The notes below the pieces were generated by a model. That model saw only the letters and a program-made list of their open reading frames with translations. It searched no databases and was not told where the DNA came from. DNA of 37,536 nt. Source: an uncultured Elusimicrobia bacterium. GTDB taxonomy: Bacteria > Elusimicrobiota > Elusimicrobia > UBA1565 > UBA9628. Shown one piece after another: positions 1 to 12,900 of this stretch. Position 1 is the stretch's first letter, and each line of letters starts with the position of its first letter. The position numbers and the translations under genes are program-made. The stretch covers positions 1 to 37,536 of the forward strand of contig CAZRIP010000006.1 in assembly GCA_964600165.1 (NCBI GenBank), read 5' to 3'.

Positions 1-760
1 GCGAGAGCAGGTCGCCGCCGTGGCTGACGGCGACGAGCATGTTCGGGCGGATCGCCGCCGCGTGGATGTCGCCGTCGATCACGTCCTTCAACGCGCCGCC
101 CGACTCGCCCCAAGCCGCTTGGTTTTCCGGCGTGACGAACCAGAATTTCTCGTTGAAGGAGGCTTTCGCGCGATCGGCGAGCCCGTCGAGCTCGGCGTCG
201 CCGGTGAGCCGCGCGACAAAGCGCAGGCCCGAGTACCACAAAGCGTTGATCTCGACGGCCTTGCCGTCGCGCGGCGTGACGGGCCGGTCGCGGCCCTCGG
301 GATCGGCGTCCATCCACGTCGCCTGGCGCGGGCCCGTGATGAGCCCGTCTTGATCCATGAAGATCTTGTTGAAGCGTCCGTAGCGCTCGTAGCCCGTGCC
401 CGTCGCGTAATGCTCTACGATGGAGCGCAGCGTCGGCGCGAGCTCCTCGGCGAACGCGCGGTCGCCGGTCGCCTCGACGTATTTCTTGACCGCCTGGATG
501 AACCAGAGCGAGCCGTCGATCGTGTTGTACTCGGACTTTCCATCCGGGAAGATGCGGTTGGGGATCAGGCCGTCTTTTTCGAAGCGCGCGAAGCGGCGCA
601 GGCTCTCCTTGGCGTCGGCGTAGCGGCCCGTCGTGAGCAGCAGGCCCGGCAGCGAGACGAACGTGTCGCGGCCCCATTCTTCAAGGAACCAGTCCATGCT
701 CGCGGCCCAGATCTCGACCGACCCGCGCTCCTCATGGACAAATCGCGCCGCCGCGGCCTC
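1..760 (-). other. GDE_C / amylo-alpha-1,6-glucosidase-like domain (truncated by the window edge) inside the giant ORF
   Basis: Motifs typical of bacterial and archaeal glycogen-debranching GDE_C proteins: DWFLEEWGRDTFVSLPGLLLTTGRY, GLIPNRIFPDGKSEYNTIDGSLWFIQAV, WMDADPEGRDRPVTPRDGKAVEINALWY. Confidence 0.7.
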
Positions 761-3700
761 GAACGCGCCGAGCGCCGCCGACGGAGCCGCCCAGACGTCC
801 CCGTCGCGCAGCGCTCGATAGGCGCCGAGCTGCGCGCGGCGGTCGTCGCGGACGCGGCTCGAGACGTCGGGATCGCTCGGCAGCGGGATCCGGTAGCGCC
901 AGTACGATTTCCCGTCGCGCACTTCCTTGACCGGGAACGGATCGCCCCACTGGTCGCCGAGCGTGTACGCCGCGAAGACGGCCGAGCGGCCGTTGCCGGC
1001 GGGGCCCGCCGCGTCCATGAAGCGCCACGAGAAGCCCGGCGACCGGGGATCGTCGTGGCCGCTCACGCTGCGCCACTGGCCCTTGATCGTCACGAAGCCC
1101 AGGCGCTCGGCGTCGCCGCCCTTGCCCTCGAAAGCCTCGGCGACCGGCAGCGCGCCGGTCGGCTCGAAGACGGCGCGCAGCGCGCGCACGTAGTCGTCGC
1201 CCTTCTCGTCGCCGCTGGCGAGCTGGCCGTTGCCGAAATTGTAGGCGAAGTGCAGCGCGTCGGCGCGCGCGCCGTCGAAGCCGAACGAAAGCCAATGCTT
1301 GAAAGGCTCGACCGCGGGCCGGTAGCCTTCCTGCTGCAGCCGCGTCCAATCCCACAGCGCGAGATCGCCCCAATCCTCGTGCACCCATTGATTGACGACG
1401 CCGGGATTGCGGGTCTTCAAGTCCTTGAAGTATTGAGGATTCTTCCAGGCGTCGACGCCGTCCTTGGCCCGGAACATCGGGATGTCGAAGATCACCTTGC
1501 CGCCGTCGCGGTGGACCTCGTCGAGCGCGTCCTTGAGCTGCGCGTACGCGAGCCACTGGGCGAAGCGGCGGCGCGCGACGAGCCCCGCGAAGCGCGGATC
1601 GCCGCGCGAGCGCTCGACATCTTGCGGCTGCCACTGCGGCGCGGGCTTGCCGATGAGATCGGAGAGGGCCATGAACGCGGCGTAATCGTCGAGCCAGTAT
1701 GAATTCTCCGAGATGAAGGCTCGCAGAGCCGCGCCGCGCAGCGAGCCTTGATCGAATCTCCGCCATGCCGCGTCGGCGACCTCGGTCTCTCTCGCGCGCA
1801 CGGCGTCGTAATGGACGCTTTGGCGCTCGTCGAGGCTCGGAGCCGCGAGCTTCGCGAGGAGCGCCGGATCCGCGGCCACCTCGTCGACCTTCGCCCAGTC
1901 GACGTAATCCTCGTTGAGGGCGTAGAGGCTGACCGGAGCGTACGGGCTTTCCGCCTTGACCGCGAAGTGCGGGAGCAAATGAACGATCGACGCGCCTTCT
2001 TTCTTCAAGTCATCCCGATAATAGGGCCCGAGGTCCGTGAACTTGCCGACGCCCGGGTCGCCCTCGGCGCGGCGCAGCGCGTAAACGGGCAGCGTCACGG
2101 CCGATTGAAATTGAGAGGGATCGCGCCACCAAGAATCCCGCGGGACGACGGGCGCGGCGCTCTCGGCGTTCGCAAGAAGGGCCGTGGCAAGACCGGCCGC
2201 CTTGACGCCGTTCCAGAGAGAGCGCTTGGAGACGGCCGGGCCGCCGCCCTGAACGCGCTGGCGCGCCTCTTGCGCGAGCTCGCCCGCCTCGGCGGCGACG
2301 CGCGCCGGATCCGCGAGCCGCGCGGCGAGCAGCTCCCGCGCCTTCGCGGCGTCGACGAAGAGTCCCCCGCCGGCGTCGCGTCCCGAGGCGCCGGGCAGCG
2401 GCTCGAGAGTCTGGCGGACCAAGTTGCTCAGGTAGAGGAACCAGCCCGCGGGCAGCGGGCCCGCGGACGCGAAGCGCTCCGTCAGCGCCGCCAGTTTCTC
2501 GGCGCTGCCGCGCGCGGCCGCGCCCGTGCCGACCTTGGCGTTCTCGGGCGCGTCGGGATCGAGGGCCAGCTCGTCGACGAGATCGGACCAGGAGGCGGCG
2601 CGCCCGTCGCGGCCCGAGCGGCCCGAGTAGAACTGCAAGCCGGTGTCCTTGCCCGCCGCCGCGACGACGACGGGCAGCGCCGCGTCCGCCGGGGCCGCGA
2701 GCGTGCGCTCGCCCGGGCCCTCGTTGCCGGAGCCCGCGACGACGCCGACGTCGCTCAGCACGAGTCGATCGACGAGCCGCGAAAGCAGAGAAGGCGCGGA
2801 GGGATCGCTCAGCGACGCAGGCGCGCCGACCTCGATCGAGACGATCAGCGGCTGCTTCAGGGGATCGCGCGACGCCGCGAGCTTCTCGAGCCGCGCCGCC
2901 ACGGCGGCTTCCGAGATCCCGGTCTGCGTCGTGACGCGCTCGAGGAAAGGAGACGTGGACGGCTCGGGCTTCGAGCTCGGTGAAAGCGTATAGAGCGGCC
3001 GCGCGGCCGACGGCGTCAGGCCCAGCTTGCGCGCGGCGATCGAGAACGCGAAGAGCTTGTGCTCCGGCACGCTGATCCAGACCGCGCCGGAGAGCGGCAT
3101 GACGGCGCGCACCGTGCCTTCGAAGCGGGCGACGGCGGCCGCGAGCTCGGCGCCGATCAAAGGAGCGGCCTCCGCCTGCGGCTGGGAGTCGTCCCAGTAG
3201 CGCGGCGCGGCGGACGAAGGCGGCAGCGCGAGCAGAAGATCGACGGGCCCGAGCGCGGCGTCGACGCCCGCCACGCCGCGCCCCGACGGGTCCGGCACCG
3301 GAGTCGGCATGTCGAGCGGGACGTCCAGCGTCCGCGCGAGAAGATTGACGAGATCGCCCAGCGCTCCCGGCTGCTCGACGGCGGCCTTGTGCTTGAGCAC
3401 GAAGACGGTCGCCGTCGTCCTCAACGGCTCGCGGCTCAGCCGCTCGCGGACCGACTTGTCCTTGAGGGCGGCCGGGAAGAAGCGGTAGGCCGTGCGCGTG
3501 AGCGCGAGGTCGTCCATGCCGCTCGCGTTGAGCAGGTCCTCGATGACCTTGTCGCTGATCGCGGCCGGGGCGTCCGAGGCGACGTGGAAGAGCGACGCCG
3601 CCGCGAGGTGCCGGATGTTCTCGCGCTCCTTGAGATCGGCCACCTTGGCGGAAAGCAGCTCGGCGTCGGACGTCTCGGCGCGCGCGCCGAGCTCGCCCAG

Positions 3701-6700
3701 CAGCGCCGCGGCCGTATAGCGAGCGTACTTGTCGGGATTGGCGGCCTCCTTGGCGACGCGCGCGACGCCGCCGCGATCGCCGTGCCGCGCGAGCGCGTAC
3801 GCCGCGTAGACGCCGACGTCCCAGCGCGGGTCGGCCGCCGCTTTCTGCAGCAGCGCGTCGACGGCCCGGCCGGGGATCTCCGCCAGCGCGAGGAACGCGG
3901 CCTGACGGACCCGCGCGTCGGGATCGTTCAAAGCCGCCTCGCCGAGAACGAGAGCGGATTCCGGGGCCTTCAGATTCATCAGCGTGAAAGCCGCCTGGAA
4001 CCGGACCAGCCAGACGTCGTCCTTGAGCGCTTGCAGCAAGCCCGGCAGCGCGGCTTGGCGCTGCGCGGCGAAGCGCTTGACCTTTTCGGCGTACGCGGCG
4101 TCGCCCTGCTGGCGGCGCTGCTCGTCGCTCGTCTCGTCGTCCTCGTCGGCCGAGGAGTCCCCGTCGAAATGGGAGGCCGGGTCCGGTTTGGGGATCTCGA
4201 TCCCCTCGTAAGCCTTGTCCTCGAGGTCGAGCACCGCCTTGTAGCGCTCGAGCCACGCGAGCGCCTCCGGCTTGACCTTCGGCAGCGTCCAACCGAGCCC
4301 CGGGAGCCGCCCCGCGCGCAGCCGCAGCGCCGAGACGTCGTCGCCGAAGATCAGCTTCATCGCGGCCATGCCGCTGCCGACGCCCGCGCCCTGGCGTTGG
4401 ATCGGCAGCCCGAGATCGGTCGACGCGCGCATCGCGATCGCGTCCGTGACGAGCGGCAGGTTCTCGAAAACGAAGCTTCCGGGCGTGTAAAGTCCGGCCA
4501 GCTTCAAGGCCTTCTTGATGAGCGCCTGGTCCGCCGCGTCGCCCGGCGCGGCCATCGACGTGCCGGACATGCCCGTGTATTTGCGGTCGTTCGTGTCGGA
4601 CGGAGTCGGCGCCATGTCCTTGGACTTGACCGAGACGACGCCCCGCTTGTAGACGTTCGGGTCGCCGGGATCGGTGACGACGTCGCCGCCTTTCCACAAG
4701 CCGTGCGGGAAGAGATAAACGCGCCGGATCGGGTAGCGCCGGTCGAGCGAGAAGCCGACCGAGCTGAAGAACGGGATCTCCCACTTCTTGTCGTCGGGCG
4801 CGACGACGACCGCGCCGACGGAGCGCACGAAGCGGCCGGCGGCCGGCTGGCTCGCCGAGTCGCGGAAAGGTCCGGCGTTGCCCGCGCTCGCCACGACGAT
4901 CGTGTACTCCCCCTTGCCGTTCTTCTTGCGCGTGAGCGCGGAGAAGAAATCCGCGAGGTTCGAGTCCGCCGTGCCGCGCTGGCCCAAGCTCATGCTGATG
5001 ACGTCGACGCCGCGCTGGAAGCCGAGGGTCGCGCCGCCCATGATGTCGCCGTCGGAGGCGCCGGGGTTGTCCTTGCCGAACACCTTGGCCATCAGCACGC
5101 GCGCGCCGCGCGCGATCCCGCGATAGACCTTGTTGAGCGAGGCGACGATGCCCGTCGTGTGCGAGCCGTGGCCGATCCAGTCCTCCGGGCCCTCGTGGAC
5201 GATGTCCAGGACCTCGACGACGCTGCGTCCGTCCGGCAGCTGAAAAGCCTCGTGCGTGGCGTCGGCGCTGGTGTCGATGACCATGACCGTGCCGTCCTCG
5301 CCGGTGACGCCGAGCTGCCAGACCGGCGGGACCTCGTGGATCTCCGCCATGTCGGTCAAGTGCAGCTTGAAATTAGCGTCCGAATGCTCGACGTCCATCG
5401 CGCTGCGCGTGACGAACTGCTTGATCTCCGCGGCTTTGCGCCGGGGGATCGTCACGTAGATCTCTTGCCGGCCTTCGTCCTCGCCCCACACGCCTTTGAT
5501 CTCGACGTCGAGCTCGTCGAACCGCTTGAGATGCTCCTCGAAGCCCGCCTCGACGAGCGCGGCGCGCGCCGCGGCGCGGGACTCGGCCGTCGCGCTCGCG
5601 TCGCCCACGGACTTCTTGATCGAATGGCCCTCCGTCGGGCGCAGCCACAGCCCGACGCGCGCCTCGGCCTTGCGCAAGACGAGGACGTGGCTGCCGTCCT
5701 CGCGATCGACGCGCGCCACGCGAAATTCGCCGCCGTCCTCCGCCTCCCAATAGCGCAGCAGCCGCTCCCAGGTCGTCACGCCGGCGTCGGCCGGCCCGAA
5801 GGACAGGAACGCCATCCCCTTGTTCTCGAGCGAGGCGTAGAGGTTGTCGACCATGGAGGCGAGCGGCATGCCCTGGAGCCTCTTGGTCGCGATCGTGCGC
5901 CAGAATTGTCGGATGCGCCGCTCGAAATCGGCCGCGGCGCGCGCGTCGCGGCGGTCGAGGCGCGAGCCGCGCCGGCTGAGCAGGAGGAACTTCGCCTCGA
6001 ACTCCGTGCCCTTGAACGCGGCGGGATTGGCCGCGCGGTCCGTGGCGAGAAGGTAGAGATTATCGAGCTGCTTGAGCGTGGCGTCGAGCTGCTGGGCCTG
6101 CTCGGAGCCGCGCGCGGGCAGAAGCGAGAACGGCTTGCCGAGGACGACGGCGCCGAACTTGCGCGCGCGCTCGGGCTTGCCGAGCTCGCTCTGCGGCTCG
6201 GCCGTCTCGATCGTCTCGACCTTGGCTTGGCCGTCGGAGAGCGCCCGGTAGATCGACTCGTCCTTGAACTCGGCGGACTCCGGGTTGACGACGAGCACTC
6301 CGAACGGCCGGCCGAGCTTGAGCGAGCTTTGCGTCTGGCGCGCGACGCGCTCGATGAGCGGGACCTTGACGTCGCGCAGCTTGGCGGCGGGGCCGAGCTC
6401 CGCGAGCCGCGCGCCGAGGTCGCGCCGCGCGCGCTCGAGGAGCGAGAAGATCGAGCCGGCCGGCGGAGGACCGCGCGAGCGGTTCTGCTTCAGGTGGTGA
6501 AGCTCGTGGACCAAGACCATGCGCCGCAAGAGCGGCGTGAAGGCGAGCTCGGGGCGCAGATAGACGGTGTCGCCCACCGCGTAGCCGAGGCCGAAGCCGC
6601 GGCCCGAGAGGTCCGGCTTGACGAGCTCGGCGACGCCGGCGTCGAGATGGCCCGCGAGGACGTCTTTTTGCAGCGCCGACTTGAGGTCGGCCGCGCGGGC

Positions 6701-7555
6701 GCCGCGGCCCTTGAATCGGGCGTAAGCATAGTAGCCCAGGTCTATCAGAGCGAGGCCGCCGAAGATCGCGCCCGCACCCGCGAACGCGCTCGCCGCCGTC
6801 GCGGCGACGACCGACAACGCGCCCACGGGATGGCCGATCGAGACCGCGGCGATGCCGACCTTGCCGAGGAAGATCGAGAGCGCGCCGACGCCGACCGCGG
6901 CCGACCCCGCGAGCGCGGCGAGCTTGGCCGGCAGGCCCGGAGAGCGGTTTTCTCGATTCGCGATTCGCCCCGCGACCGGCGAATACATACTATGGGCGCC
7001 CATAGCGTGTGCTCGCTCGTCGAGGCGGACGGAAGAAGCGGGCGGGTTGGCGACGACCGATTCACCTGCAGACGCCGCGCCCTGCTCGCCGATCTGCCGG
7101 ATGAAATCGTCCGACGCCGCGCCGCGGGCGCTGTCCCCCGCCGATTCGGCGGGCAACTGCGAAAGCACTGTCGGCGCGGCGAGGCGCTGGAGGTCGCCCG
7201 CGAACGCTTGCGCGCGCGCCGACTTCGCATCCGCCATGCGGCGGATGACGAGAGGCGCCTGCGCGCTCGCCGCAGCTTGAACGGCCGCCGCTTGGGGCGC
7301 CACGAGCGCGGCGACGGCCCAAGGCGAAAGCGAGACGTTCGCGATGGAGACGTCGACGGCAGCAAGCTTGCTCAAGTCGCCGACCGGCGCCAGCGGCGCC
7401 TGGTTGACGGGCAAAACCGGGACGACCTCGATGACGGGCGCGGAGCCCCGTCCGGTCGTCTCGGCGGCGGCGGCCTGCCAGGCTTGCGGCCCGGCCGAGG
7501 ACGCCAAAAGCGAGAGCGTCAGCAGCGACGCCGTCGCCTTGCGCAGCTTGAGCAC
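1..7555 (-). CDS. Giant secreted multidomain protein, C-terminus beyond the window (at least 2518 aa). Order of parts: signal peptide, two predicted TM helices, HExxHxxQ motif, S8 subtilase, HEAT-like repeats, degenerate S8-like segment, GH77 4-alpha-glucanotransferase, GDE_C amylo-alpha-1,6-glucosidase.
   Basis: Manual block-by-block translation of the minus strand found no stop codon from 7555 down to 1. The frame is constant and GC3 is high over most of it. The start is a GTG at 7555..7553, 7 nt after AAGGA, directly after in-frame TAA/TGA stops, and it encodes MLKLRKATASLLTLSLLASSAGPQAW, which reads as a Sec signal peptide. Recognisable motifs are VMVIDTSAD, GHGSHTTGIVAS, VVASAGNAGP and GMSGTSMAAP (S8 D/H/N/S), plus VHELHHLKQ. 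The HEAT-like stretch contains NDPDARVRQAAFLALAEIPG. The GH77 region aligns with Thermus amylomaltase blocks (YWLDDYAAFMAL, IFDIPMF, DWGDLALWDW, FGFDGARADALHF, LPVAEAFEG, GHDD). The GDE_C region contains WFLEEWGRDTFVSLPGLLLTTGRYADAKESL, GLIPNRIFPDG and WMDADPEGRDRPVTPRDGKAVEINALWY. The ORF track omits this frame only because no stop lies inside the window. Confidence 0.7.
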   Translation of the reverse strand, partial: MLKLRKATASLLTLSLLASSAGPQAWQAAAAETTGRGSAPVIEVVPVLPVNQAPLAPVGDLSKLAAVDVSIANVSLSPWAVAALVAPQAAAVQAAASAQAPLVIRRMADAKSARAQAFAGDLQRLAAPTVLSQLPAESAGDSARGAASDDFIRQIGEQGAASAGESVVANPPASSVRLDERAHAMGAHSMYSPVAGRIANRENRSPGLPAKLAALAGSAAVGVGALSIFLGKVGIAAVSIGHPVGALSVVAATAASAFAGAGAIFGGLALIDLGYYAYARFKGRGARAADLKSALQKDVLAGHLDAGVAELVKPDLSGRGFGLGYAVGDTVYLRPELAFTPLLRRMVLVHELHHLKQNRSRGPPPAGSIFSLLERARRDLGARLAELGPAAKLRDVKVPLIERVARQTQSSLKLGRPFGVLVVNPESAEFKDESIYRALSDGQAKVETIETAEPQSELGKPERARKFGAVVLGKPFSLLPARGSEQAQQLDATLKQLDNLYLLATDRAANPAAFKGTEFEAKFLLLSRRGSRLDRRDARAAADFERRIRQFWRTIATKRLQGMPLASMVDNLYASLENKGMAFLSFGPADAGVTTWERLLRYWEAEDGGEFRVARVDREDGSHVLVLRKAEARVGLWLRPTEGHSIKKSVGDASATAESRAAARAALVEAGFEEHLKRFDELDVEIKGVWGEDEGRQEIYVTIPRRKAAEIKQFVTRSAMDVEHSDANFKLHLTDMAEIHEVPPVWQLGVTGEDGTVMVIDTSADATHEAFQLPDGRSVVEVLDIVHEGPEDWIGHGSHTTGIVASLNKVYRGIARGARVLMAKVFGKDNPGASDGDIMGGATLGFQRGVDVISMSLGQRGTADSNLADFFSALTRKKNGKGEYTIVVASAGNAGPFRDSASQPAAGRFVRSVGAVVVAPDDKKWEIPFFSSVGFSLDRRYPIRRVYLFPHGLWKGGDVVTDPGDPNVYKRGVVSVKSKDMAPTPSDTNDRKYTGMSGTSMAAPGDAADQALIKKALKLAGLYTPGSFVFENLPLVTDAIAMRASTDLGLPIQRQGAGVGSGMAAMKLIFGDDVSALRLRAGRLPGLGWTLPKVKPEALAWLERYKAVLDLEDKAYEGIEIPKPDPASHFDGDSSADEDDETSDEQRRQQGDAAYAEKVKRFAAQRQAALPGLLQALKDDVWLVRFQAAFTLMNLKAPESALVLGEAALNDPDARVRQAAFLALAEIPGRAVDALLQKAAADPRWDVGVYAAYALARHGDRGGVARVAKEAANPDKYARYTAAALLGELGARAETSDAELLSAKVADLKERENIRHLAAASLFHVASDAPAAISDKVIEDLLNASGMDDLALTRTAYRFFPAALKDKSVRERLSREPLRTTATVFVLKHKAAVEQPGALGDLVNLLARTLDVPLDMPTPVPDPSGRGVAGVDAALGPVDLLLALPPSSAAPRYWDDSQPQAEAAPLIGAELAAAVARFEGTVRAVMPLSGAVWISVPEHKLFAFSIAARKLGLTPSAARPLYTLSPSSKPEPSTSPFLERVTTQTGISEAAVAARLEKLAASRDPLKQPLIVSIEVGAPASLSDPSAPSLLSRLVDRLVLSDVGVVAGSGNEGPGERTLAAPADAALPVVVAAAGKDTGLQFYSGRSGRDGRAASWSDLVDELALDPDAPENAKVGTGAAARGSAEKLAALTERFASAGPLPAGWFLYLSNLVRQTLEPLPGASGRDAGGGLFVDAAKARELLAARLADPARVAAEAGELAQEARQRVQGGGPAVSKRSLWNGVKAAGLATALLANAESAAPVVPRDSWWRDPSQFQSAVTLPVYALRRAEGDPGVGKFTDLGPYYRDDLKKEGASIVHLLPHFAVKAESPYAPVSLYALNEDYVDWAKVDEVAADPALLAKLAAPSLDERQSVHYDAVRARETEVADAAWRRFDQGSLRGAALRAFISENSYWLDDYAAFMALSDLIGKPAPQWQPQDVERSRGDPRFAGLVARRRFAQWLAYAQLKDALDEVHRDGGKVIFDIPMFRAKDGVDAWKNPQYFKDLKTRNPGVVNQWVHEDWGDLALWDWTRLQQEGYRPAVEPFKHWLSFGFDGARADALHFAYNFGNGQLASGDEKGDDYVRALRAVFEPTGALPVAEAFEGKGGDAERLGFVTIKGQWRSVSGHDDPRSPGFSWRFMDAAGPAGNGRSAVFAAYTLGDQWGDPFPVKEVRDGKSYWRYRIPLPSDPDVSSRVRDDRRAQLGAYRALRDGDVWAAPSAALGAFEAAAARFVHEERGSVEIWAASMDWFLEEWGRDTFVSLPGLLLTTGRYADAKESLRRFARFEKDGLIPNRIFPDGKSEYNTIDGSLWFIQAVKKYVEATGDRAFAEELAPTLRSIVEHYATGTGYERYGRFNKIFMDQDGLITGPRQATWMDADPEGRDRPVTPRDGKAVEINALWYSGLRFVARLTGDAELDGLADRAKASFNEKFWFVTPENQAAWGESGGALKDVIDGDIHAAAIRPNMLVAVSHGGDLLS
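1000..2110 (-). other. GH77 4-alpha-glucanotransferase (amylomaltase-like) domain inside the giant ORF
   Basis: Collinear similarity to Thermus aquaticus amylomaltase blocks, as recalled from memory: LPVYALRRAEGDPGVGKF..LPHF, YWLDDYAAFMALSD, QWLAYAQLKDALDEVH..IFDIPMF, DWGDLALWDW, FGFDGARAD (putative nucleophile Asp at 1276..1274), LPVAEAFEG, SGHDD. Confidence 0.75.
3400..4040 (-). other. HEAT / PBS-lyase-like repeat region inside the giant ORF
   Basis: Repeated helical units of the form DPDARVRQAAFLALAEIPGRAVDALLQKAAADPRWDVGVYAAYALARHGD and similar, preceded by an acidic linker (DEDDETSDEQRRQQ). Confidence 0.55.
4480..5300 (-). other. Peptidase S8 (subtilisin-like) catalytic domain inside the giant ORF
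   Basis: Catalytic Asp is in VIDTSAD (codon 5275..5273). Catalytic His is in GHGSH (5170..5168). Oxyanion Asn region is SAGNAGP (around 4885). Catalytic Ser is in GTSMAAP (4558..4556). The order D-H-N-S matches subtilases. Confidence 0.8.
6494..6508 (-). other. HExxH (HELHH, then KQ) putative zinc-binding motif after the TM pair in the giant ORF; resembles DUF4157-type HExxHxxQ
   Basis: Translation ...LRPELAFTPLLRRMVLVHELHHLKQNR. There is no further Zn-ligand evidence, so the metallopeptidase assignment is tentative. Confidence 0.35.
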
Positions 7556-7583
7556 GAAGCAGTCCTTTTGCGGCTGGATTTAA

Positions 7584-8765
7584 CTACTGAATGAAAATCA
7601 AAGTAGGCGCGGCGTCGGCCGTGCGCGGAGGCCCGCTGAACATCTCCTTGCGGGCCTGCTGCGGCAAGGCGACCGGGTACGAGCTCGCGCGCTCGGGCTT
7701 CGAGCGCTTTTTGACGACGGGCGCGGCGGCGGCGCGCGCGGAATCGACGAAATCGTCCTCGCCGCGCGGCTTGGGCCGCGACGACGCGTAAGACGACGGG
7801 CCCGAGCCGCTGCCGATGTGGATCGGCAGCGCGAAACCGCACTGGGCGATCCACGCCTTTCCCGAGTCGACGCCGCCCGCCTTGACCTCGGCGTTGAAGA
7901 AGAAATTGACCCAGCTGTGCTGGTACCCGGAACCCAAGATCAAGCGGCCTTGGTTCTGCTCGGGCTTGCGGCTCGAGTCGCCGGCCCACGGCGCGATCAG
8001 ATCGTGCTCCGGATCGGCCTCGAGACGGGCGTGGACCGAGCCGGTGACGTGGTTGTAGCCGAGGCCGGCGAACGGCGTGAAGCGGCCGAAGTTTTGGCTG
8101 ACGACGGCGTTCAAGCCGTAGCTGTTGACGTTCCAGCGCAGCCCGCCGTTGATGTCGATGGTGTCCGTGAAGCCGAGGTCGTTGACCGGGATGGACGTCT
8201 TGTAAGCGAAGTTTCCGTAGACGTAGTTGTAGTTCGCGGCGAGCGAGACGAGCGGCAGCTCTTCGCCGAGGAAATGCTTGCGCAGCGTGAAGCCGAGCGA
8301 GTTCGACTGGCCCTTGGCCGTCGTCGTCGGCGAAAGCTTGTAGCCCGGCGGCGTCGTCATGTTCGCGCCGCGGACCGCGAAGTCCATCCGATACGGCAAG
8401 CCGCCGCGCAAGTGCATGACCAGGTTCGGGAACAGCACCGAGGACGGGAAGACCGATTCGGGATGGGCGTCGGAGATCTGCTGGGTCTGCATCACCGGGA
8501 ACTTCGACTTGTCGAGCGGCATATGGCCGACGCCCAGGCTGACGTCGGGCTGAAGGCGCTTGTCGATCACTTCGTGCGGCGGGTCGAACGACTCGCCGGC
8601 GTTAAACCCGAGGCCTTTGACGAGTTCCCCGCTGAGCCAGTCCGTGATGTTCTGGAAGTCGGTCCCGGCGTCGGGGTTGGCGCGCGCGGGGGTACCGGAA
8701 AAGCCGAGCGCCGCGACCAGGAGAGCCGTCGCGGCGCGTCGGGCCTTCCCGGCGCGAGCCTCCAT
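7584..8765 (-). CDS. Putative outer-membrane beta-barrel protein with an N-terminal signal peptide
   Basis: MEARAGKARRAATALLVAALGFSGTPARA is a signal peptide. The body is rich in alternating aromatic and Gly residues (NYNYVYGNFAYKTS, GLRWNVNSYGLNAVVSQNFGRFTPFAGLGYNH). Its ATG immediately follows the TAG stop of the upstream small ORF. The C-terminal 70 aa are low-complexity, so the 3' end is less certain. Confidence 0.6.
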   Translation of the reverse strand: MEARAGKARRAATALLVAALGFSGTPARANPDAGTDFQNITDWLSGELVKGLGFNAGESFDPPHEVIDKRLQPDVSLGVGHMPLDKSKFPVMQTQQISDAHPESVFPSSVLFPNLVMHLRGGLPYRMDFAVRGANMTTPPGYKLSPTTTAKGQSNSLGFTLRKHFLGEELPLVSLAANYNYVYGNFAYKTSIPVNDLGFTDTIDINGGLRWNVNSYGLNAVVSQNFGRFTPFAGLGYNHVTGSVHARLEADPEHDLIAPWAGDSSRKPEQNQGRLILGSGYQHSWVNFFFNAEVKAGGVDSGKAWIAQCGFALPIHIGSGSGPSSYASSRPKPRGEDDFVDSARAAAAPVVKKRSKPERASSYPVALPQQARKEMFSGPPRTADAAPTLIFIQ

Positions 8766-8986
8766 CTAGTGCTTGATCACCCGGGAGCGGCCTCGATCCG
8801 TGAGCCAGAAATAGGCCTGTCCGCTTTTGGAGCAAGAGAGCTTCGTCGTGACGCGGTCCGCGACGCGCGGGGCGTGCGTCTCGGTCTGAGCGCGGAGATT
8901 GAGCTCGAGCCATTGGGAAAGATTCGCTACGCGAGCCTTGTGGCCGTGCTTGCGGGAGATGCTGGGCGGTGTCTTTTTCATCATTT
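8766..8986 (-). CDS. Small basic hypothetical protein (73 aa)
   Basis: ATGATG start preceded by GAGGAAGAA. Translation is MMKKTPPSISRKHGHKARVANLSQWLELNLRAQTETHAPRVADRVTTKLSCSKSGQAYFWLTDRGRSRVIKH. Its stop directly abuts the ATG of the beta-barrel gene. GC3 bias is moderate. Confidence 0.5.
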
Positions 8987-9108
8987 CTTCCTCTGCCCAG
9001 ATGATAACACCCGCCCCGTCGGGGCTCATGGGCCGGAGGGCCCAACGCCTCGAAGGCAAAAGGCCTAGCGGGAAGCCTGAGGCGAATTAGCCTTTAAAAT
9101 GCAGGGTT

Positions 9109-9876
9109 TTACTGGCCGTAAGCCAGGCGCAACGCGAGGTATTCCGGCAGGCCGGCGGCGCGGATCTTGGCCTGGACGGCGGCGACGTCGTAATCCAGCC
9201 GGACGACGCGGAAAGTGCCGCGCGAGGAGTCGTAAAGCCCGCAGGAGGCGCGACGATCCTGGTCGCGCGGCTGGCCGACCGAGCCCGGATTGAAGGCGGT
9301 CGGGGCGCCCGGCTCGATCTTCACCTCTTGCTGGTCCTCGAGGATCATGGAGTCGACGCGTCCGGTCTGCGGGTTCATCACGCGAAAGCACAGCGGCATG
9401 TGGCTGTGGCCGACGAACAGCGGCCATTTCTTGACGTAGGGGATGTTGTCGTGGAACTGCGTCACGCTCAACAGGTATTCCTCGGGAGGACGGCGCGGCG
9501 TGCCGTGCGCGATCGTGAACTCCTCCTTCTCGAGCTTGGCCGACATGCTTTCGACGAACGCCCGCGAGTCCGCGGAAAGCTGATCGCGCGTCCAGAGCGC
9601 CGCGGCGCGCGCGTACGGATTGAACCAATCAGCGTCCATGCGGCCGATGACGGCCAAGTCGTGGTTGCCGCAGACGATCGAGAGGTTCTTGAGCGCGCGC
9701 AGTTTCACGAGCACGGCCTCGGGGTCCGGGCCGTAGCCGACGAGATCGCCGCAGCAGATGTAGCCGCCGACCTCGAAGTCCGAGAACATCTCGAGCACGG
9801 CGGTCAACGCCTCGAGGTTCGAATGAACGTCGGAGAAGACGCCGTAGAGCACGAAAGCGATGCTACTAAATCTCAA
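9109..9876 (-). CDS. Calcineurin-like metallophosphoesterase (YfcE/MJ0936-like)
   Basis: Motifs LYGVFSDVHSN, GDLVGYGPDP, GNHD and GHSH. Start is uncertain: the track start at 9876 is a TTG embedded in a hairpin, and an alternative GTG lies at 9852. Confidence 0.85.
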   Translation of the reverse strand: MRFSSIAFVLYGVFSDVHSNLEALTAVLEMFSDFEVGGYICCGDLVGYGPDPEAVLVKLRALKNLSIVCGNHDLAVIGRMDADWFNPYARAAALWTRDQLSADSRAFVESMSAKLEKEEFTIAHGTPRRPPEEYLLSVTQFHDNIPYVKKWPLFVGHSHMPLCFRVMNPQTGRVDSMILEDQQEVKIEPGAPTAFNPGSVGQPRDQDRRASCGLYDSSRGTFRVVRLDYDVAAVQAKIRAAGLPEYLALRLAYGQ

Positions 9877-9898
9877 CTTACCCCGGGGTAAGTCGAGA
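9871..9898 (-). terminator. Near-perfect 28-bp palindrome (12-bp stem, CCGG loop) directly after the smc stop; putative intrinsic terminator
   Basis: tctcaacttaccccggggtaagtcgaga. On the minus-strand RNA this gives ucucgacuuacccc/gggguaaguugaga with one G.U pair, followed by uuu. It overlaps the candidate TTG start of the phosphoesterase. Confidence 0.5.
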
Positions 9899-9909
9899 CC
9901 CGCGGCCGC

Positions 9910-12900
9910 TTAAGCCGCCGGCTTTTCGGTCTCGCCCGCGAGCTCGAAGGGCCCGTGCGTGTCCGGCTTCTTGGGGGCCTCGGCGTCGGGGACGACCGCG
10001 CTCAGCGGCACGGCCGCGGCACCCGCGGTCTCCTTTCGCTTCTCGTTGGGGCGGAAATCGACGGAGACGAGCTGGGAGACGCCCATCTCCTCCATCGTCA
10101 CGCCGTAGATGACGTCGGCCGCCTCCATCGTGCGCTTGTTGTGGCTGACGATGAGGAACTGCGAGCGCTGCTGGAACTCCTTGAGCAGCCCCACGAAGCG
10201 CTCGACGTTGGCGTCGTCGAGGGCGGCGTCCGCCTCGTCGAGCATGCAGAACGGAGACGGTTTGACCATGAAGAACGAGAAGAGCAGCGCGATCGCGGTC
10301 AGCGTCTTCTCGCCGCCGGAGAGCAGCGAGATCGACTGGAGCCTCTTGCCCGGCGGCTGCGCGACGATGTCGACGCCGGTCTCGAGGATATTCTCCGGCT
10401 CGGTCAAGACGAGATCGGCCTCGCCGCCCTCGAAGAGCACGCCGTACAGGCGGCGGAAGTGCTCGCGCACCTCGGTGAAGGTCTGCCGGAAGTTCTCGCG
10501 CGTCGCCGAGTTGATCTTCGTGATCGCGGCCATGAGGTCTTCCTTGGCCTTCTTCAAGTCCTCGATCTGGTTGGCGAGAAACACCTGCTTCTCGGAGAGC
10601 GCGTGGTACTCCTCGGGCGCCGCCATGTTGACGTTGCCGAGCGCGGCGATGCGCTTGCGCAAGAACTCCACGCGCTCCGCGTCGACGGGCTGCTCGCCGT
10701 ACTTGTGCTTGGCCTCGTCGACGGTGAGCTGCCAATCGTCCCACAAGCGTTTGGTCAGGGCGTCGCGGGTCGCGCGCTGGGAGCTCGTTTGCAGCTCGAG
10801 CTCGTGGAGCTTCCGCTGCGACTCCTCGACGAGCGCCTTGAGCTCGCGCAGCTTGGCCTCGCGGGCCGCGATGGCGCGGTCGAGCTCCTGCAGCTTGTCG
10901 AAAACGGCCTTCGCGTCGTTCTCGAGGCCGGCAAGGCGCTCGCCGAAGCCGGACAACGACGCGCGAGACTCCTCGGCGATCGCCTTGGCTTGCTCGTCGC
11001 GCTTTCCGAGCTCGACGATCTCCTGGCGGCGGCGCGAGGCGGCGTCCTCGAGCGTCTGCTTCTCGGCGCCCAAGCGCTCGTAAGCGCCGGCGAGGAAGCG
11101 CAGCTTCTCATCTAAGCCCGCGAACTTTTCCCTCAAGAACTGCTGCTCGGCCTGGCTCTTGGCGACCTGCTCGCGCAAGGCGGCGATGCCGGCCGCGGCC
11201 TCCGCCTCCCTTGCCCGGGCGGCCAGCTCGGCGGCCGCCGCTTCGTCGATGCCGCCGCGCAGGAGCTTGATCTTCTCCTTGATGAGGGCCATTTCCGCGA
11301 GCGTGCCGGCCGCTTCCGAGGTGGAAAGCTCGACGTTGCGCCGCGACGTCTCGATGAACGATTCTTTTTGGGCGACGGCCGACGCGGCGGCGCTCGCCTG
11401 CGCGTCCTGGCGCGCGGCTTCGGACCCGGCGCGGCGCGCCTCGTTCTCGGCGGCGGCGGCGCGCTCTTGGAGCGCGGCGCGGTCGGCGGCGAGAACTTCG
11501 CTCTTTTCACGGGAAACGGCGACTTTCGCGCGCAGCTCGCCGATCTCGGCGAGGCCGACTTGGAGGCTCTCGCCCGTTTTCGCGCCGCCGTAGACCCAAT
11601 GCTCGCCGAAGAGCGCCTTGCCGAGCGTGTAGGCCTCCTGCAGCAGGAAGCGCACGACGGCCTCGTGCTTCGCGTCGGCGATCTCGATCTGGGACAGCAA
11701 GGACTTGGCCTCGGCCGGATAGATCTTCTCGCCGAAGTTCTGCGGCAGGGCGCTCAGAACGAGAAAGCGGGCCCGGCCCTTGCCGGAGTCGCTCAGGAGC
11801 TCCACGGCGGCTCGCGCCGCCGTGGAGTCCTCGCAGACGACGGCGTAGAGCCGCTCGCCCAGGAGATCCTCGAGATAGGGCTTGACCGACTCGTCGCACT
11901 TGATGAGCTGGCGCACGGTGCCGATCACGCCGGGGATGCCGGCCGACAGCGCGGCCTGCGCGCCGGTCCAATAGGGGTTCTGGCCGCCCTGCGCTTCGAG
12001 CGCCTCGGCGCGCGCCTGCGTCTGCGCGAGCTCGGAGTTGAGGCGGATCGTGTCGTCGGCGGCTTGCGTCAGCGCCGCGCGGACGGAGGCAAGCGCGTCC
12101 TCGGCGGCGACGGCCTGCGCGGCGGCCGCGGCGGCGGACTCCCGCTGCGTCCTCGACAGCTCGCGGGAGACCGCGCTCTCTTCCTCGGCGCGCGCGGCTT
12201 GCGCGAGGTCTTTCTCGAGGTCGCGCAGGCTGGCGCGAAGCCGCATCTCTTCTCTAGAAAAAGCCGACTCCGCCTCGGCGAGCGTCCGGCGCCGGCCGAG
12301 GGCGTCCTCGGCGGCGGCGAGCGCCTCCTTGCGCAGGGCGTCCAGCCGCGAATCCTCTTCCTTTAAAAGGGCGGTCTGCTCGTCGTGGCGAGCCTTGCCG
12401 GCGTCGACCTCGGCCTGTCCCCCGTCGCGGGCGGTCTCGGCTTCGGCCACGGCGGCGCTGGCGCGCTCGAGCTCCGGCGCGATCGCGGCCTGGCGGGCCT
12501 GCGTCTGGTCGATCTCGATCTCGCATTCGCGCACGCGCACGGCGATCTGCGCGGTCTCGCGCTGCGAGGAGTTGACGCGCTCCTCGAGGCGGCCGATCTC
12601 GGACTTGACCTGAGAGATCTTCTGATTGCACTCGATGACGCGGTTCTGCTCGTTGGCTTTCTCGAGGTTCGCCGCGGCGAGATTGGCGCCCTCGCCGTCC
12701 TGCTCGGCGCGCTTGGTGCCGAGCAGCTCCTCGAGGGGCTTGGACTGCTCGCCGAGGACGGCCAACTGCTGGTCGATGTCGCCCGCCTGCTGGATGATGC
12801 TGGCGGCTTCGGCGGCGGCCAGCTCGGCCTTGTACTTCTCGAAGAGCTTGGCTTTGCGCGCGTCGCTGTCGAGCTTCTTGACCTGCTCGTCGATGAGGCT

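What the first reader, a model, noticed from the sequence alone, without database searches (positions are those of the whole stretch)
1..7555. Single open reading frame of at least 2518 aa fusing a secreted S8 protease, HEAT repeats and a complete GH77 + GDE_C glycogen-debranching pair
One minus-strand frame is stop-free and codon-biased from a signal-peptide-encoding GTG at 7555 all the way to the window edge. The supplied ORF track does not list it because its stop is outside the window. The long plus-strand ORF 3059..7594 (1511 aa) and the 924-aa ORF 2010..4784 are Arg-rich antisense artefacts of it. The encoded protein combines a Sec signal, two predicted TM helices and an HExxHxxQ motif with a canonical subtilase. 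The subtilase has D (VIDTSAD), H (GHGSH), N (SAGNAGP) and S (GTSMAAP). After it come an acidic linker, HEAT-like repeats, a second degenerate subtilase-like segment (GSGNEGP...VVVAAAGKD) and a full amylomaltase-like GH77 domain. The last part is a GDE_C amylo-1,6-glucosidase domain. I do not recognise a protease fused to a transferase plus glucosidase glycogen-debranching pair as any described architecture. The transferase-glucosidase logic echoes eukaryotic debranching enzymes but uses GH77 rather than GH13, and here it sits on an exported polypeptide. It could be a processing-activated secreted polysaccharide-remodelling enzyme or a sequence-level fusion.
Basis: partly seen in the sequence, partly recalled or inferred. 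Interest (0 to 1): 0.85.

Follow-up and report, generated by a model that had tools for sequence, protein, structure and literature searches.

The report
Protease carrier fused to glycogen-debranching enzymes
The window really does encode one giant protein, probably exported and membrane-anchored, that joins an active subtilisin-type protease and HEAT repeats to a two-enzyme glycogen-debranching module. The same fusion occurs in at least 17 other Elusimicrobiota genomes, so it is a real architecture that I could not find described in the literature.

Summary
The minus-strand frame 7555..1 has no stop for 2518 codons (46 expected by chance) and GC3 is 0.8-0.97 throughout. Pfam finds Peptidase_S8, HEAT_2, Glyco_hydro_77 and GDE_C in that one frame.

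The fusion is not an assembly artefact. Of 30 related Elusimicrobiota loci with an upstream carrier homologue reaching its C-terminal part, 17 independent MAG loci have the same in-frame fusion. Eleven of those ORFs are complete, at 2644-2916 aa. In 11 others the two halves are separate, mostly adjacent genes, and the GH77+GDE_C gene then has its own signal peptide and an Ala/Pro linker. Some split-form carriers end instead in a divergent GH13-like domain.

The S8/HEAT protein therefore behaves as a carrier whose C-terminal cargo is always an alpha-glucan enzyme. Catalytic residues are conserved for S8 (D761/H796/N893/S1000), GH77 (D2099/E2140/D2168) and GDE_C (D2297/D2416). A second S8-like domain is a pseudo-protease.

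Most likely function (inferred): a membrane-anchored, extracytoplasmic enzyme that combines proteolysis with indirect debranching of glycogen-like glucans. This parallels eukaryotic GDE but uses a GH77 transferase.

The same GH77+GDE_C pair is also embedded in giant Omnitrophota and Elusimicrobiota proteins. No paper describing the architecture was found. The window lacks roughly the last 160 aa.

The parts
1..7555 (-). Single ORF of at least 2518 aa. The start is GTG 7555 and the 3' end runs off the window. Comparison with fused homologues suggests about 160 aa are missing, giving a full length near 2680 aa.
   Evidence: no stop, GC3 0.8-0.97; homologous fused ORFs of 2644-2916 aa
7466..7555 (-). 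N-terminal Sec-type signal peptide, aa 1-30 (MLKLRKATASLLTLSLLASSAGPQAWQAAAAE).
   Evidence: Sequence. AF2 predicts helix 2-19. Aligns with the N-termini of homologues. Similar to the signal peptides of stand-alone GH77+GDE_C proteins. No dedicated signal-peptide predictor was available.
6938..7465 (-). Ala/Ser/Val/Pro-rich spacer of low predicted order, aa 31-206.
   Evidence: Composition; pLDDT below 50 over most of it.
6710..6937 (-). Hydrophobic two-helix hairpin, the putative membrane anchor, aa 207-282.
   Evidence: Kyte-Doolittle peaks at 208-275. AF2 helices 207-237 and 244-282, pLDDT 70-83.
6326..6709 (-). Compact HExxH domain, aa 283-410. H350-E351-x-x-H354 lies at nt 6494-6508, and E379/E386 sit on the next helix. 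Putative zincin-like metallopeptidase, unverified.
   Evidence: HExxH kept in 35 of 36 homologues. AF2 pLDDT 85-95 with three strands plus the motif helix. Only sub-threshold Pfam DUF6782. No significant PDB fold match.
5621..6328 (-). Domain with a class-I SAM-methyltransferase (Rossmann-like) fold, about aa 410-645. It lacks the GxGxG SAM-binding motif (VLVVNPES instead).
4481..5290 (-). Subtilase (Peptidase_S8) catalytic domain, aa 756-1025, with triad D761, H796, S1000 and oxyanion N893.
   Evidence: Pfam 85.9 bits against a cutoff of 21.8. Across 36 homologues H, N and S are kept in 36 of 36 and D in 33 of 36.
4076..4303 (-). Acidic linker, aa 1085-1160.
   Evidence: 25% Asp+Glu.
3356..4078 (-). 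HEAT-repeat region. Pfam covers aa 1165-1260, and a conserved helical continuation runs to about aa 1400.
   Evidence: HEAT_2 43.9 bits and HEAT 32.8 bits. Dense invariant columns 1171-1400.
2216..2938 (-). Second, degenerate subtilase-like domain (pseudo-protease), about aa 1540-1780. GSGNEGP is kept, the Asp/His segment is deleted, and the Ser position reads GTGAAA.
   Evidence: Aligns with the second Peptidase_S8 hit of P0003, which keeps GHGTH and GTSMAAP. The Ser position is Ala or Gly in 33 of 36 homologues.
2138..2233 (-). Fusion junction, aa 1775-1806 (AVSKRSLWNGVKAAGLATALLANAESAAPVVPR). It has a basic stretch, a short hydrophobic stretch and an ANA|ES site, so it looks like a signal peptide. 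There is no in-frame start codon between aa 1712 and 1820.
776..2137 (-). GH77-type 4-alpha-glucanotransferase domain, aa 1807-2260. It begins at the conserved WW(K/R)D motif. Putative nucleophile D2099 (GARADALHF), acid/base E2140 (VAEAFEG) and D2168 (SGHDDP).
   Evidence: Pfam GH77 117 bits. Profile match to Thermus and Aquifex amylomaltase structures at E 1e-23. The three residues are invariant in 14-16 homologues.
1..721 (-). GDE_C (GH133) amylo-alpha-1,6-glucosidase domain, aa 2279-2518, truncated by the window edge. D2297 (WGRD) and D2416 (TWMD) are conserved.
   Evidence: Pfam GDE_C 206 bits, profile 14-238 of 367. Alignment to Candida glabrata GDE 5D06 maps D2297 to D1078 and D2416 to D1241.
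7584..8765 (-). Upstream gene, 393 aa, DUF6588-like, with its own signal peptide. It is always directly upstream of the carrier gene in relatives and is probably in the same operon.
   Evidence: Pfam 26.2 bits, just under the cutoff of 27. Conserved position in all 23 of the 30 carrier-bearing loci that matched it (L029, the only other hit, lacks both it and a carrier), plus L001 and L003. A 4-bp overlap with the carrier gene in L002.

Best explanation
This is one real gene of an Elusimicrobiota bacterium, and it encodes a protein of about 2700 aa.

Shown directly:
- The N-terminal two thirds (the 'carrier') contain, in order: a signal peptide, an Ala/Pro-rich spacer, a two-helix hydrophobic hairpin, a small HExxH domain, a methyltransferase-fold domain, an intact S8 subtilase, an acidic linker, HEAT repeats and a dead second subtilase domain.
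- The C-terminal third (the 'cargo') is a GH77-type 4-alpha-glucanotransferase followed directly by a GH133/GDE_C amylo-alpha-1,6-glucosidase. Both keep their catalytic residues.
- In relatives the same two parts are either fused, as here, or encoded by neighbouring genes. Some carriers instead end in a GH13-like domain.

Inferred:
- Carrier and cargo act as one unit on the outer face of the cytoplasmic membrane. The reasons are a Sec signal plus an even number of membrane helices in the carrier, and Sec signal peptides on every stand-alone GH77+GDE_C protein.
- The cargo debranches glycogen-like or starch-like alpha-glucans by the indirect route used by eukaryotic GDE. The transferase moves the maltooligosyl stub to another chain, and the glucosidase then removes the remaining alpha-1,6-linked glucose.
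- The active S8 domain either digests protein in the same substrate (necromass, or dextrins that reach the periplasm) or matures or releases the cargo.
For: Single frame and domains.

Fusion is real: 17 loci have no stop between carrier and cargo, and 11 of the ORFs are complete at 2644-2916 aa. P0070 (2686 aa) has the same Pfam order. The junction pattern is conserved. There is no internal start codon in the window junction.

Functional coupling:
- 11 loci are split, most with the two genes adjacent.
- Fused and split forms are interleaved in the NJ tree.
- The alternative C-terminal cargo is a divergent GH13 domain.
- The gene order DUF6588 then carrier is conserved.

Catalytic competence:
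- The S8 triad and oxyanion Asn are conserved.
- GH77 D/E/D are invariant.
- GDE_C D2297 and D2416 match CgGDE D1078 and D1241, whose mutation abolishes glucosidase activity (PMC4837477).

Export:
- Stand-alone GH77+GDE_C proteins start with typical signal peptides, e.g. MKRMLSVLLSALIALSGGPFA.SAAAQ and MKKILGAISIFFCLMTTVHA.
- AF2 predicts exactly two long helices after the N-terminal signal helix.

Indirect debranching by a transferase plus GH133 is the established mechanism of eukaryotic GDE (PMC4837477, PMC7965971).
Against: - No enzyme activity, localisation or processing was measured.
- Topology is inferred without a dedicated predictor. The hairpin is flanked on both sides by Arg/Lys (RENRSPGLPAK ... 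RFKGRGAR), which by the positive-inside rule would put the bulk in the cytoplasm.
- HEAT repeats and a methyltransferase fold are more typical of cytoplasmic proteins.
- In other giant proteins the same GH77+GDE_C pair is fused to phosphorylase-like and GT5 glycogen-synthase domains, which normally work in the cytoplasm.
- The Pfam GH77 match is partial (profile 1-279 of 465).
- The glucosidase catalytic base lies outside the window.
- The junction in this particular contig is not covered by the only independent assembly of the same strain, because L001 ends at window base 2324.
- The natural substrate is unknown. The gene neighbourhood (SMC, metallophosphoesterase, MltA) gives no carbohydrate-uptake context.
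Confidence: 0.55

Rival explanations
1. Membrane-tethered cytoplasmic machine. The hairpin anchors the protein with its bulk in the cytoplasm, where GH77+GDE_C debranch the cell's own glycogen. The S8/HEAT part would act as a scaffold or regulator at the glycogen granule.
For: Positive charges flank both ends of the hairpin (sequence; helices). HEAT repeats and a SAM-methyltransferase-like fold are typical of cytoplasmic proteins. The GH77+GDE_C pair is fused to phosphorylase-like, GH13 and GT5 glycogen-synthase domains in other large proteins. Glycogen itself is cytoplasmic.
Against: An N-terminal Sec-type signal followed by two helices returns the chain to the outside. Every stand-alone GH77+GDE_C homologue examined has a Sec-type signal peptide, so the same module would have to sit on opposite sides of the membrane in sister lineages. 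Even the GT5-containing P0076 starts with a signal peptide. Subtilases are mostly extracytoplasmic.
Confidence: 0.2
2. Polyprotein precursor. The fused chain is cut at the conserved signal-peptide-like junction, either by its own S8 domain or by signal peptidase. This would release a soluble GH77+GDE_C enzyme equivalent to the separately encoded one. This is a variant of the main model rather than an exclusive alternative.
For: The junction keeps a basic stretch, a short hydrophobic stretch and an AxA-like pattern in the window (ANA|ES) and in most fused homologues. The split forms deliver the same module as a free secreted protein. An intact protease is always present in the chain.
Against: No cleavage data exist. 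Several homologues have Pro right after the putative AxA site (AFA-P, AHA-P). A similar basic, amphipathic tail also ends some split-form carriers, where nothing follows it. It may therefore be just a structural tail.
Confidence: 0.25
3. Contact-dependent attack or harvesting protein, like the giant surface proteins proposed for predatory Omnitrophota. It would digest the protein and storage glucan of other cells.
For: The same GH77+GDE_C pair is embedded in dozens of 2300-7600-aa proteins with N-terminal signal anchors, some assigned to Omnitrophota. West-Roberts et al. (bioRxiv 10.1101/2023.11.21.568195) link giant Omnitrophota proteins carrying glycogen-synthase-like domains to predation.
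Against: At least one related genome is 3.8 Mb (L047, CP096137.1), which does not look like a reduced epibiont genome. No adhesin, secretion-system or cell-wall-lytic domains are present in the protein. That preprint does not mention GH77, GDE_C or this architecture.
Confidence: 0.1
4. Assembly or sequencing artefact. Two neighbouring genes would have been joined by a collapsed Ala-rich repeat or a lost stop codon in this contig only.
For: The closest protein-level orthologue first found (L002) has two genes separated by 125 bp. Both flanks of the junction are GC-rich and Ala-rich. The independent same-strain contig L001 stops 90-190 nt short of the junction.
Against: The same in-frame fusion, with the same junction pattern, occurs in 17 MAG loci from different studies and assemblers and in P0070. 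GC3 and frame are continuous across the junction. The stops in L001 are all G>T/C>A changes typical of damage or sequencing errors.
Confidence: 0.02

Closest known systems
Eukaryotic glycogen debranching enzyme (GDE/AGL, indirect debranching enzyme; GH13_25 + GH133; e.g. Candida glabrata 5D06)
   Same: A 4-alpha-glucanotransferase and an amylo-alpha-1,6-glucosidase sit on one polypeptide in the same N-to-C order. The GDE_C domain is homologous (E 5e-20). The residues equivalent to CgGDE D1078 and D1241 are conserved.
   Different: The transferase here belongs to GH77 (amylomaltase type), not GH13_25. The protein is bacterial, carries a signal peptide, and is fused to a protease/HEAT carrier. 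The literature describes the indirect enzyme as specific to eukaryotes (PMC7965971).
Stand-alone Elusimicrobiota GH77+GDE_C proteins of about 950-1170 aa, annotated '4-alpha-glucanotransferase' or 'glycogen debranching enzyme' (e.g. P0005-P0044, and gene 2 of L002)
   Same: The same module at 59-64% identity over window aa 1798-2518, with the same conserved WWKD start and catalytic residues.
   Different: They are separate genes with their own signal peptide and a 100-250-aa Ala/Pro linker. In the window these parts are missing and the module continues from the carrier with no stop or start codon.
Bacterial amylomaltase MalQ (GH77; Thermus aquaticus 1CWY/1ESW, Aquifex 1TZ7)
   Same: Pfam GH77 is above the cutoff. 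A profile of the domain matches amylomaltase structures over about 260 residues (E 1e-23), up to just before the nucleophile.
   Different: MalQ is a cytoplasmic single-domain enzyme of about 500 aa. Here the region around the catalytic residues (GARxDALHF, AEAFEG, SHDD) looks more like GH13 conserved regions II-IV, and the last 40% of the GH77 profile is not matched.
Large cell-envelope subtilases (S8 proteases with long accessory regions and membrane or wall anchors; my own knowledge, not tested)
   Same: Intact D/H/S subtilase in a very large protein that is probably exported and anchored.
   Different: No PA, Fn3 or wall-anchor domains were detected here. This protein carries HEAT repeats, a pseudo-subtilase and glycoside hydrolase or transferase cargo.
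Giant multi-enzyme proteins of Omnitrophota ('Archaeovorins', West-Roberts et al., bioRxiv 10.1101/2023.11.21.568195)
   Same: Very long exported proteins that combine glycogen-metabolism-type domains. The GH77+GDE_C pair of this family occurs in 2300-7600-aa proteins together with GH13, GT5 and phosphorylase-like domains.
   Different: The window protein is smaller and has a defined, conserved S8/HEAT carrier that those proteins lack (blastp of the carrier). The preprint does not report GH77 or GDE_C modules.

Membership tests
Peptidase S8 (subtilase) | Profile match above the curated Pfam cutoff | tested here: met
   PF00082, 85.9 bits against 21.8, aa 756-1025.
Peptidase S8 (subtilase) | Catalytic triad in Asp-His-Ser order plus the oxyanion-hole Asn | tested here: met
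   D761 (VIDTSAD), H796 (GHGSH), N893 (SAGNAGP), S1000 (GTSMAAP). H, N and S are kept in 36 of 36 homologues and D in 33 of 36.
Peptidase S8 (second domain, aa ~1540-1780) | Catalytic triad present | tested here: not met
   The Asp/His segment is absent and the Ser position is Gly (GTGAAA). It is Ala or Gly in 33 of 36 homologues. Only the P0003 type keeps GHGTH and GTSMAAP. The domain is a pseudo-protease.
GH77 4-alpha-glucanotransferase | Profile match above the curated Pfam cutoff | tested here: met
   PF02446, 117.1 bits against 25. Profile match to amylomaltase structures at E 1e-23.
GH77 4-alpha-glucanotransferase | Match over the whole catalytic (beta/alpha)8 domain | tested here: not met
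   Only profile positions 1-279 of 465 are matched, and the same holds in all homologues scanned. NCBIfam equivalog scores are far below their cutoffs.
GH77 4-alpha-glucanotransferase | Clan GH-H catalytic Asp (nucleophile), Glu (acid/base) and Asp (transition-state stabiliser) | tested here: inconclusive
   D2099, E2140 and D2168 are invariant in 14-16 homologues. R-x-D lines up with R-I-D293 of Thermus amylomaltase just past the end of the HMM alignment, and weak GH13 hits cover the same stretch. The assignment rests on motifs, not on structure or activity.
GH133 / GDE_C amylo-alpha-1,6-glucosidase | Profile match above the curated Pfam cutoff | tested here: met
   PF06202, 205.9 bits against 21. 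Coverage is profile 14-238 of 367 because the window ends. Complete in the fused homologue P0070 (288 bits).
GH133 / GDE_C amylo-alpha-1,6-glucosidase | Residues equivalent to CgGDE D1078 and general acid D1241 | tested here: met
   WGRD (D2297) aligns with D1078 and TWMD (D2416) aligns with D1241. Both are invariant in the alignment.
GH133 / GDE_C amylo-alpha-1,6-glucosidase | Catalytic base equivalent to CgGDE E1492 | not testable with these tools
   It lies beyond base 1 of the window. Homologues have a near-invariant LPEVFDG motif there, but phmmer alignments to 5D06 stop at residue 1440.
Indirect glycogen debranching enzyme (functional class) | Transferase and alpha-1,6-glucosidase activities on limit dextrin | not testable with these tools
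   This needs an enzyme assay.
HEAT repeat proteins | Profile match above the curated cutoff | tested here: met
   HEAT_2, 43.9 bits against 27.7. HEAT, 32.8 bits against 23.5.
Zincin metallopeptidase (DUF4157 / DUF6782-like) | Profile match, or fold match to a known metallopeptidase | tested here: not met
   No DUF4157 hit. DUF6782 reaches only 13 bits (E 0.06) against a cutoff of 27. Foldseek against PDB gave nothing below E=1. HExxH and a downstream Glu are nevertheless conserved.
Class I SAM-dependent methyltransferase | Rossmann-like methyltransferase fold | tested here: met
   [not shown]
Class I SAM-dependent methyltransferase | Gly-rich SAM-binding motif I (E/DxGxGxG) | tested here: not met
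   The first strand reads VLVVNPES, and the homologue consensus is VLVVNPxSxE. It should not be filed as an active methyltransferase.

The most novel reading that the evidence does not exclude
The S8/HEAT protein is a dedicated membrane-anchored carrier with exchangeable C-terminal alpha-glucan enzymes: none, GH13-like, or GH77+GH133. The GH77+GH133 pair would be a bacterial, extracytoplasmic, convergently built counterpart of the eukaryotic indirect debranching enzyme. It would be delivered either tethered, or released by cleavage at the conserved signal-peptide-like junction, to harvest glycogen and protein from necromass or from other cells.
Probability: 0.25. Interest if true: 0.8.

Novelty: new variant of a known kind. 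Interest (0 to 1): 0.62.

Why it matters
Indirect glycogen debranching by a transferase and a GH133 glucosidase on one chain is treated as a eukaryotic invention (PMC7965971). This finding shows a bacterial version built from a different transferase family (GH77). It appears to be exported, and in many Elusimicrobiota it is welded to an active protease/HEAT carrier.

The repeated fusion and fission of carrier and cargo is a natural 'Rosetta stone'. It assigns an otherwise uncharacterised family of 1800-2800-aa subtilase proteins to alpha-glucan processing. It also links them to the glycogen-enzyme modules hidden in the giant proteins of Omnitrophota.

This gives a concrete, clonable module for testing extracellular glycogen scavenging in uncultured groundwater and soil phyla. 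It also warns that gene callers and protein databases can miss such fusions.

Tried and rejected
1. Assembly artefact. This was suspected after L002 showed two genes. It was rejected when 17 loci showed the same in-frame fusion.

2. The 100%-identical but shorter protein P0001 (1388 aa) and the three 'genes' called on L001 looked like evidence for stops. All 10 differences from the window are G>T/C>A, and three of them create TAG. I treated them as damage or sequencing errors. L001 also ends before the junction.

3. Word-indexed protein searches found no protein longer than 2047 aa and only 2-4 carrier homologues. The exhaustive HMMER search and the genome scan found the fused forms. The absence of a fused protein is therefore a limit of that search, not a biological result.

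4. The HExxH domain has no significant Pfam or PDB fold match.

5. The methyltransferase-like fold was considered as a real activity. I rejected it as an active enzyme because motif I is missing.

6. A third transmembrane segment (aa 79-104, or a split of helix 244-282) would put the bulk in the cytoplasm. It is not conserved as hydrophobic in P0002 or P0003, and AF2 gives two helices.

The afdb50 fold library was unavailable.

8. I tried to map the GDE_C catalytic base onto CgGDE E1492 in a complete homologue. The alignment stops at residue 1440.

9. Neighbouring genes give no carbohydrate-uptake context: SMC, metallophosphoesterase and MltA.

Full report
**1. The observation**

Translating window 7555..1 on the minus strand gives 2518 codons with no stop. 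Base composition predicts 46 stops over that length (P about 7e-21). The other five frames carry 2-82 stops. GC at the third codon position is 0.79-0.97 in every 100-codon block, so one coding frame runs through the whole stretch, including the parts with no domain hit.

In-frame stops at 7582 and 7600 close the frame upstream. GTG 7555 is the first possible start, follows an AAAGGA, and aligns with Met1 of homologues.

Pfam places four families in this one frame:
- Peptidase_S8, aa 756-1025
- HEAT_2 and HEAT, aa 1165-1225
- Glyco_hydro_77, aa 1822-2099
- GDE_C, aa 2279-2512

NCBIfam agrees at the family level only.

Small corrections to the finding:
- ORF 2010..4784 lies on the same strand in another frame, not antisense.
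- The GH77 profile match is partial (1-279 of 465).
- GDE_C is cut by the window edge.

**2. Is the fusion real?**

The first homology search raised doubt. The best non-identical relative, P0002, is an 1860-aa S8/HEAT protein. On its contig (L002) it is followed, after 125 bp, by a separate 1077-aa GH77+GDE_C gene. P0002 aligns with window aa 21-1780. The second L002 protein aligns, from its residue 166, with window aa 1798-2518 at 61% identity. More than 50 GH77+GDE_C proteins of 950-1170 aa from Elusimicrobia MAGs were found, none with a protease.

A same-strain contig (L001, 99.9% identical to window 10812..2324) even shows three in-frame TAG codons. However, all ten differences from the window are G>T or C>A, an error signature, and L001 ends before the junction.

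I then scanned one genome per species with a GH77+GDE_C alignment and walked the reading frames in 10-kb flanks. In 30 loci, a carrier homologue reaching its C-terminal part lies upstream of the GH77+GDE_C region:
- In 17 loci the carrier and GH77+GDE_C are in the same frame with no stop between them. These are L012, L016-L024, L026-L028, L030, L031, L033 and L048.
- Eleven of these ORFs are complete, at 2644-2916 aa.
- In 11 loci they are separate genes, most of them directly adjacent.
- In 2 loci (L032, L047) the frame breaks at a poly-A run.

The exhaustive HMMER search independently found P0070 (2686 aa) with the identical Pfam order.

The junction has a shared pattern in fused forms: a basic stretch, a short hydrophobic stretch, a 20-40-aa linker, then WW(K/R)D. 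The window has no in-frame start codon between aa 1712 and 1820, so the glucan module can only be made as part of the long chain. An artefact is therefore very unlikely.

Fused and split forms are interleaved in a neighbour-joining tree of the GH77+GDE_C region. This points to repeated fusion or fission of two genes that stay together.

**3. Anatomy**

The order along the chain is as follows.

1. Signal peptide, aa 1-30, followed by an Ala/Pro/Ser/Val-rich spacer of low predicted order.
2. Two long hydrophobic helices, aa 207-237 and 244-282.
3. A compact domain carrying H350ExxH354 and conserved Glu379/Glu386. HExxH is kept in 35 of 36 homologues. The domain has no significant Pfam or PDB match.
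5. The intact subtilase, with D761, H796, N893 and S1000.
6. An acidic linker.
7. HEAT repeats.
8. A second subtilase-like domain. It has lost the Asp/His segment and the Ser in the window and in 33 of 36 homologues. It is intact in the P0003 type.
9. The junction.
10. The GH77 domain. It matches amylomaltase structures up to just before the nucleophile (E 1e-23). After that it carries invariant GARxDALHF, AEAFEG and SHDD motifs, which resemble GH13 regions II-IV. The putative catalytic residues are D2099, E2140 and D2168.
11. The GDE_C domain. WGRD (D2297) and TWMD (D2416) align with Candida glabrata GDE D1078 and the general acid D1241. Mutation of either abolishes glucosidase activity (PMC4837477). 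The catalytic base lies beyond the window edge.

**4. Surroundings and relatives**

A DUF6588-like gene with its own signal peptide (window 7584-8765) sits directly upstream of the carrier. It does so in every locus where the upstream region is available and it was detected, and it overlaps the carrier gene by 4 bp in L002. Further upstream, a small ORF, a metallophosphoesterase and SMC are also syntenic.

Some split-form carriers (P0122, P0131, P0138; loci L004, L007, L011; a separate ORF in L009) end in an extra domain of about 500-700 aa:
- In P0131 and P0138 it has all four GH13-type motifs (DEIPNH, RRDMAY, FDEAY, GTHDG).
- In P0131 it matches alpha-amylase structures at E about 1e-11 and just passes the Pfam Alpha-amylase cutoff.

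So the carrier's C-terminal partner, whether fused or adjacent, is always an alpha-glucan enzyme.

Every stand-alone GH77+GDE_C protein examined begins with a Sec-type signal peptide. This includes distant ones such as P0055 and P0058.

The GH77+GDE_C pair is also embedded in dozens of 2300-7600-aa proteins. P0073 is assigned to Omnitrophota and P0084 to Elusimicrobiota. Partner domains include GH13 alpha-amylase, GT5 glycogen synthase and phosphorylase-like regions.

**5. How it most likely works**

Shown:
- It is one gene.
- The catalytic motifs of S8, GH77 and GDE_C are intact.
- Carrier and cargo are linked through evolution.

Inferred:
- The chain is exported by Sec, and the two-helix hairpin holds it in the cytoplasmic membrane with the bulk outside. 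This is the only topology that agrees both with a functional N-terminal signal plus two helices and with the signal peptides of the split-form cargo.
- There, the GH77 domain would transfer the maltooligosyl part of a short branch to another chain, and the GDE_C domain would hydrolyse the remaining alpha-1,6-glucose. This is the indirect route of eukaryotic GDE (PMC4837477, PMC7965971).
- The protease may digest accompanying protein, or it may process the chain at the signal-peptide-like junction.

Counter-evidence:
- Arg/Lys flank both ends of the hairpin.
- HEAT repeats and the methyltransferase fold are typical of the cytoplasm.
- In other giant proteins the fusion partners (GT5, phosphorylase) are cytoplasmic enzymes.

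For these reasons I keep a cytoplasmic, membrane-tethered glycogen machine as the main rival at 0.2.

**6. Comparison and novelty**

The parts belong to known families, with the caveats listed in the membership table. The combination is not described in the literature I could search:
- No paper combines Elusimicrobia with glucanotransferase and debranching.
- A 2024 review of prokaryotic alpha-glucan enzymes, in the 12 passages displayed, mentions GH133 only in archaeal contexts, as an amylo-alpha-1,6-glucosidase debranching enzyme.
- The Stramenopila storage-polysaccharide study calls the indirect enzyme (GH13_25+GH133) selectively eukaryotic.
- The two Omnitrophota giant-protein preprints do not mention GH77 or GDE_C.

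Where public sequences of the wider GH77+GDE_C and carrier families carry a name, it is generic: 'S8 family serine peptidase', '4-alpha-glucanotransferase' or 'glycogen debranching enzyme'. The fused representative P0070 carries no name.

I rate it a new variant of known kinds: a new, conserved multi-enzyme architecture and a bacterial GH77-based analogue of GDE. Interest is moderately high. Function and localisation remain inferences.

Noticed in passing
L001 (= window 10812..2324); stops at window 7113, 2838 and 2722: A contig of the same strain from another ENA assembly differs at 10 positions. All are G>T or C>A in L001, and three create TAG stops inside the big ORF. This is an oxidative-damage-type error signature. 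It also explains why the protein database holds a truncated 1388-aa copy (P0001).
   Followed up: yes
L032 and L047, about 10040-10060; compare L020 at the same place: In two sister genomes the fused frame breaks exactly at a poly-A run that encodes LRPKKK at the start of the GH77 core. L020 has T+A9 and is in frame, L032 lacks the T (-1 nt), and L047 has T+A7 (-2 nt). An A9 tract is odd in a genome of about 68% GC. It could be a homopolymer sequencing error or a slippage-prone switch that uncouples cargo from carrier.
   Followed up: partly
P0073, P0076, P0078-P0084, P0086, P0088-P0105 and others: The GH77+GDE_C pair is embedded in dozens of 2300-7600-aa proteins, two of which were traced to Omnitrophota and Elusimicrobiota (P0073, P0084). 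P0076 has the order GH77, GDE_C, GH13 alpha-amylase, GT5 glycogen synthase. P0073, P0082 and P0084 add phosphorylase-like regions. Several start with a signal anchor followed by the motif N(F/I)W.ERR(K/R).
   Followed up: partly
P0131 aa 1720-2423; P0138 aa 1750-2560; loci L004, L007, L009, L011: Some split-form carriers end in a divergent GH13-like domain instead of GH77+GDE_C, with motifs DEIPNH, RRDMAY, FDEAY and GTHDG. P0138 also has a C-terminal multi-helix hydrophobic region of about 250 aa. In L009 the GH13-like part is a separate ORF between carrier and cargo.
   Followed up: partly
window 7584-8765 (minus strand): A DUF6588-like gene with a signal peptide and a beta-rich sequence with alternating aromatic residues, plus a Pro/Ser/Arg-rich tail of about 80 aa. 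It is always directly upstream of the carrier gene in relatives and might be an outer-membrane partner.
   Followed up: partly
[not shown]
   Followed up: partly
N-termini of the window ORF, P0002, and stand-alone GH77+GDE_C proteins: Carrier and stand-alone cargo proteins share a very similar N-terminal signal, of the form K/R-rich ... LLSALIALSGGP(F/Q)A.SAAAQ(V/E), followed by long Ala/Pro-rich spacers. This may reflect a lineage-typical Sec signal plus a periplasm-spanning linker, or a specific sorting route.
   Followed up: no
window 2010-4784 (minus strand) and 3059-7594 (plus strand): There are long spurious ORFs of 924 and 1511 aa in non-coding frames of the big gene. The first is on the same strand, not antisense as the finding states. 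Such ORFs are typical of DNA with about 70% GC.
   Followed up: yes
window 9910-13485 and L048 2-325: The SMC gene upstream is 90% identical at the protein level, over the short stretch available, to that of L048 (Elusimicrobia MAG DAIDHI010000038.1). That genome may be the closest sampled relative of the window's organism.
   Followed up: no
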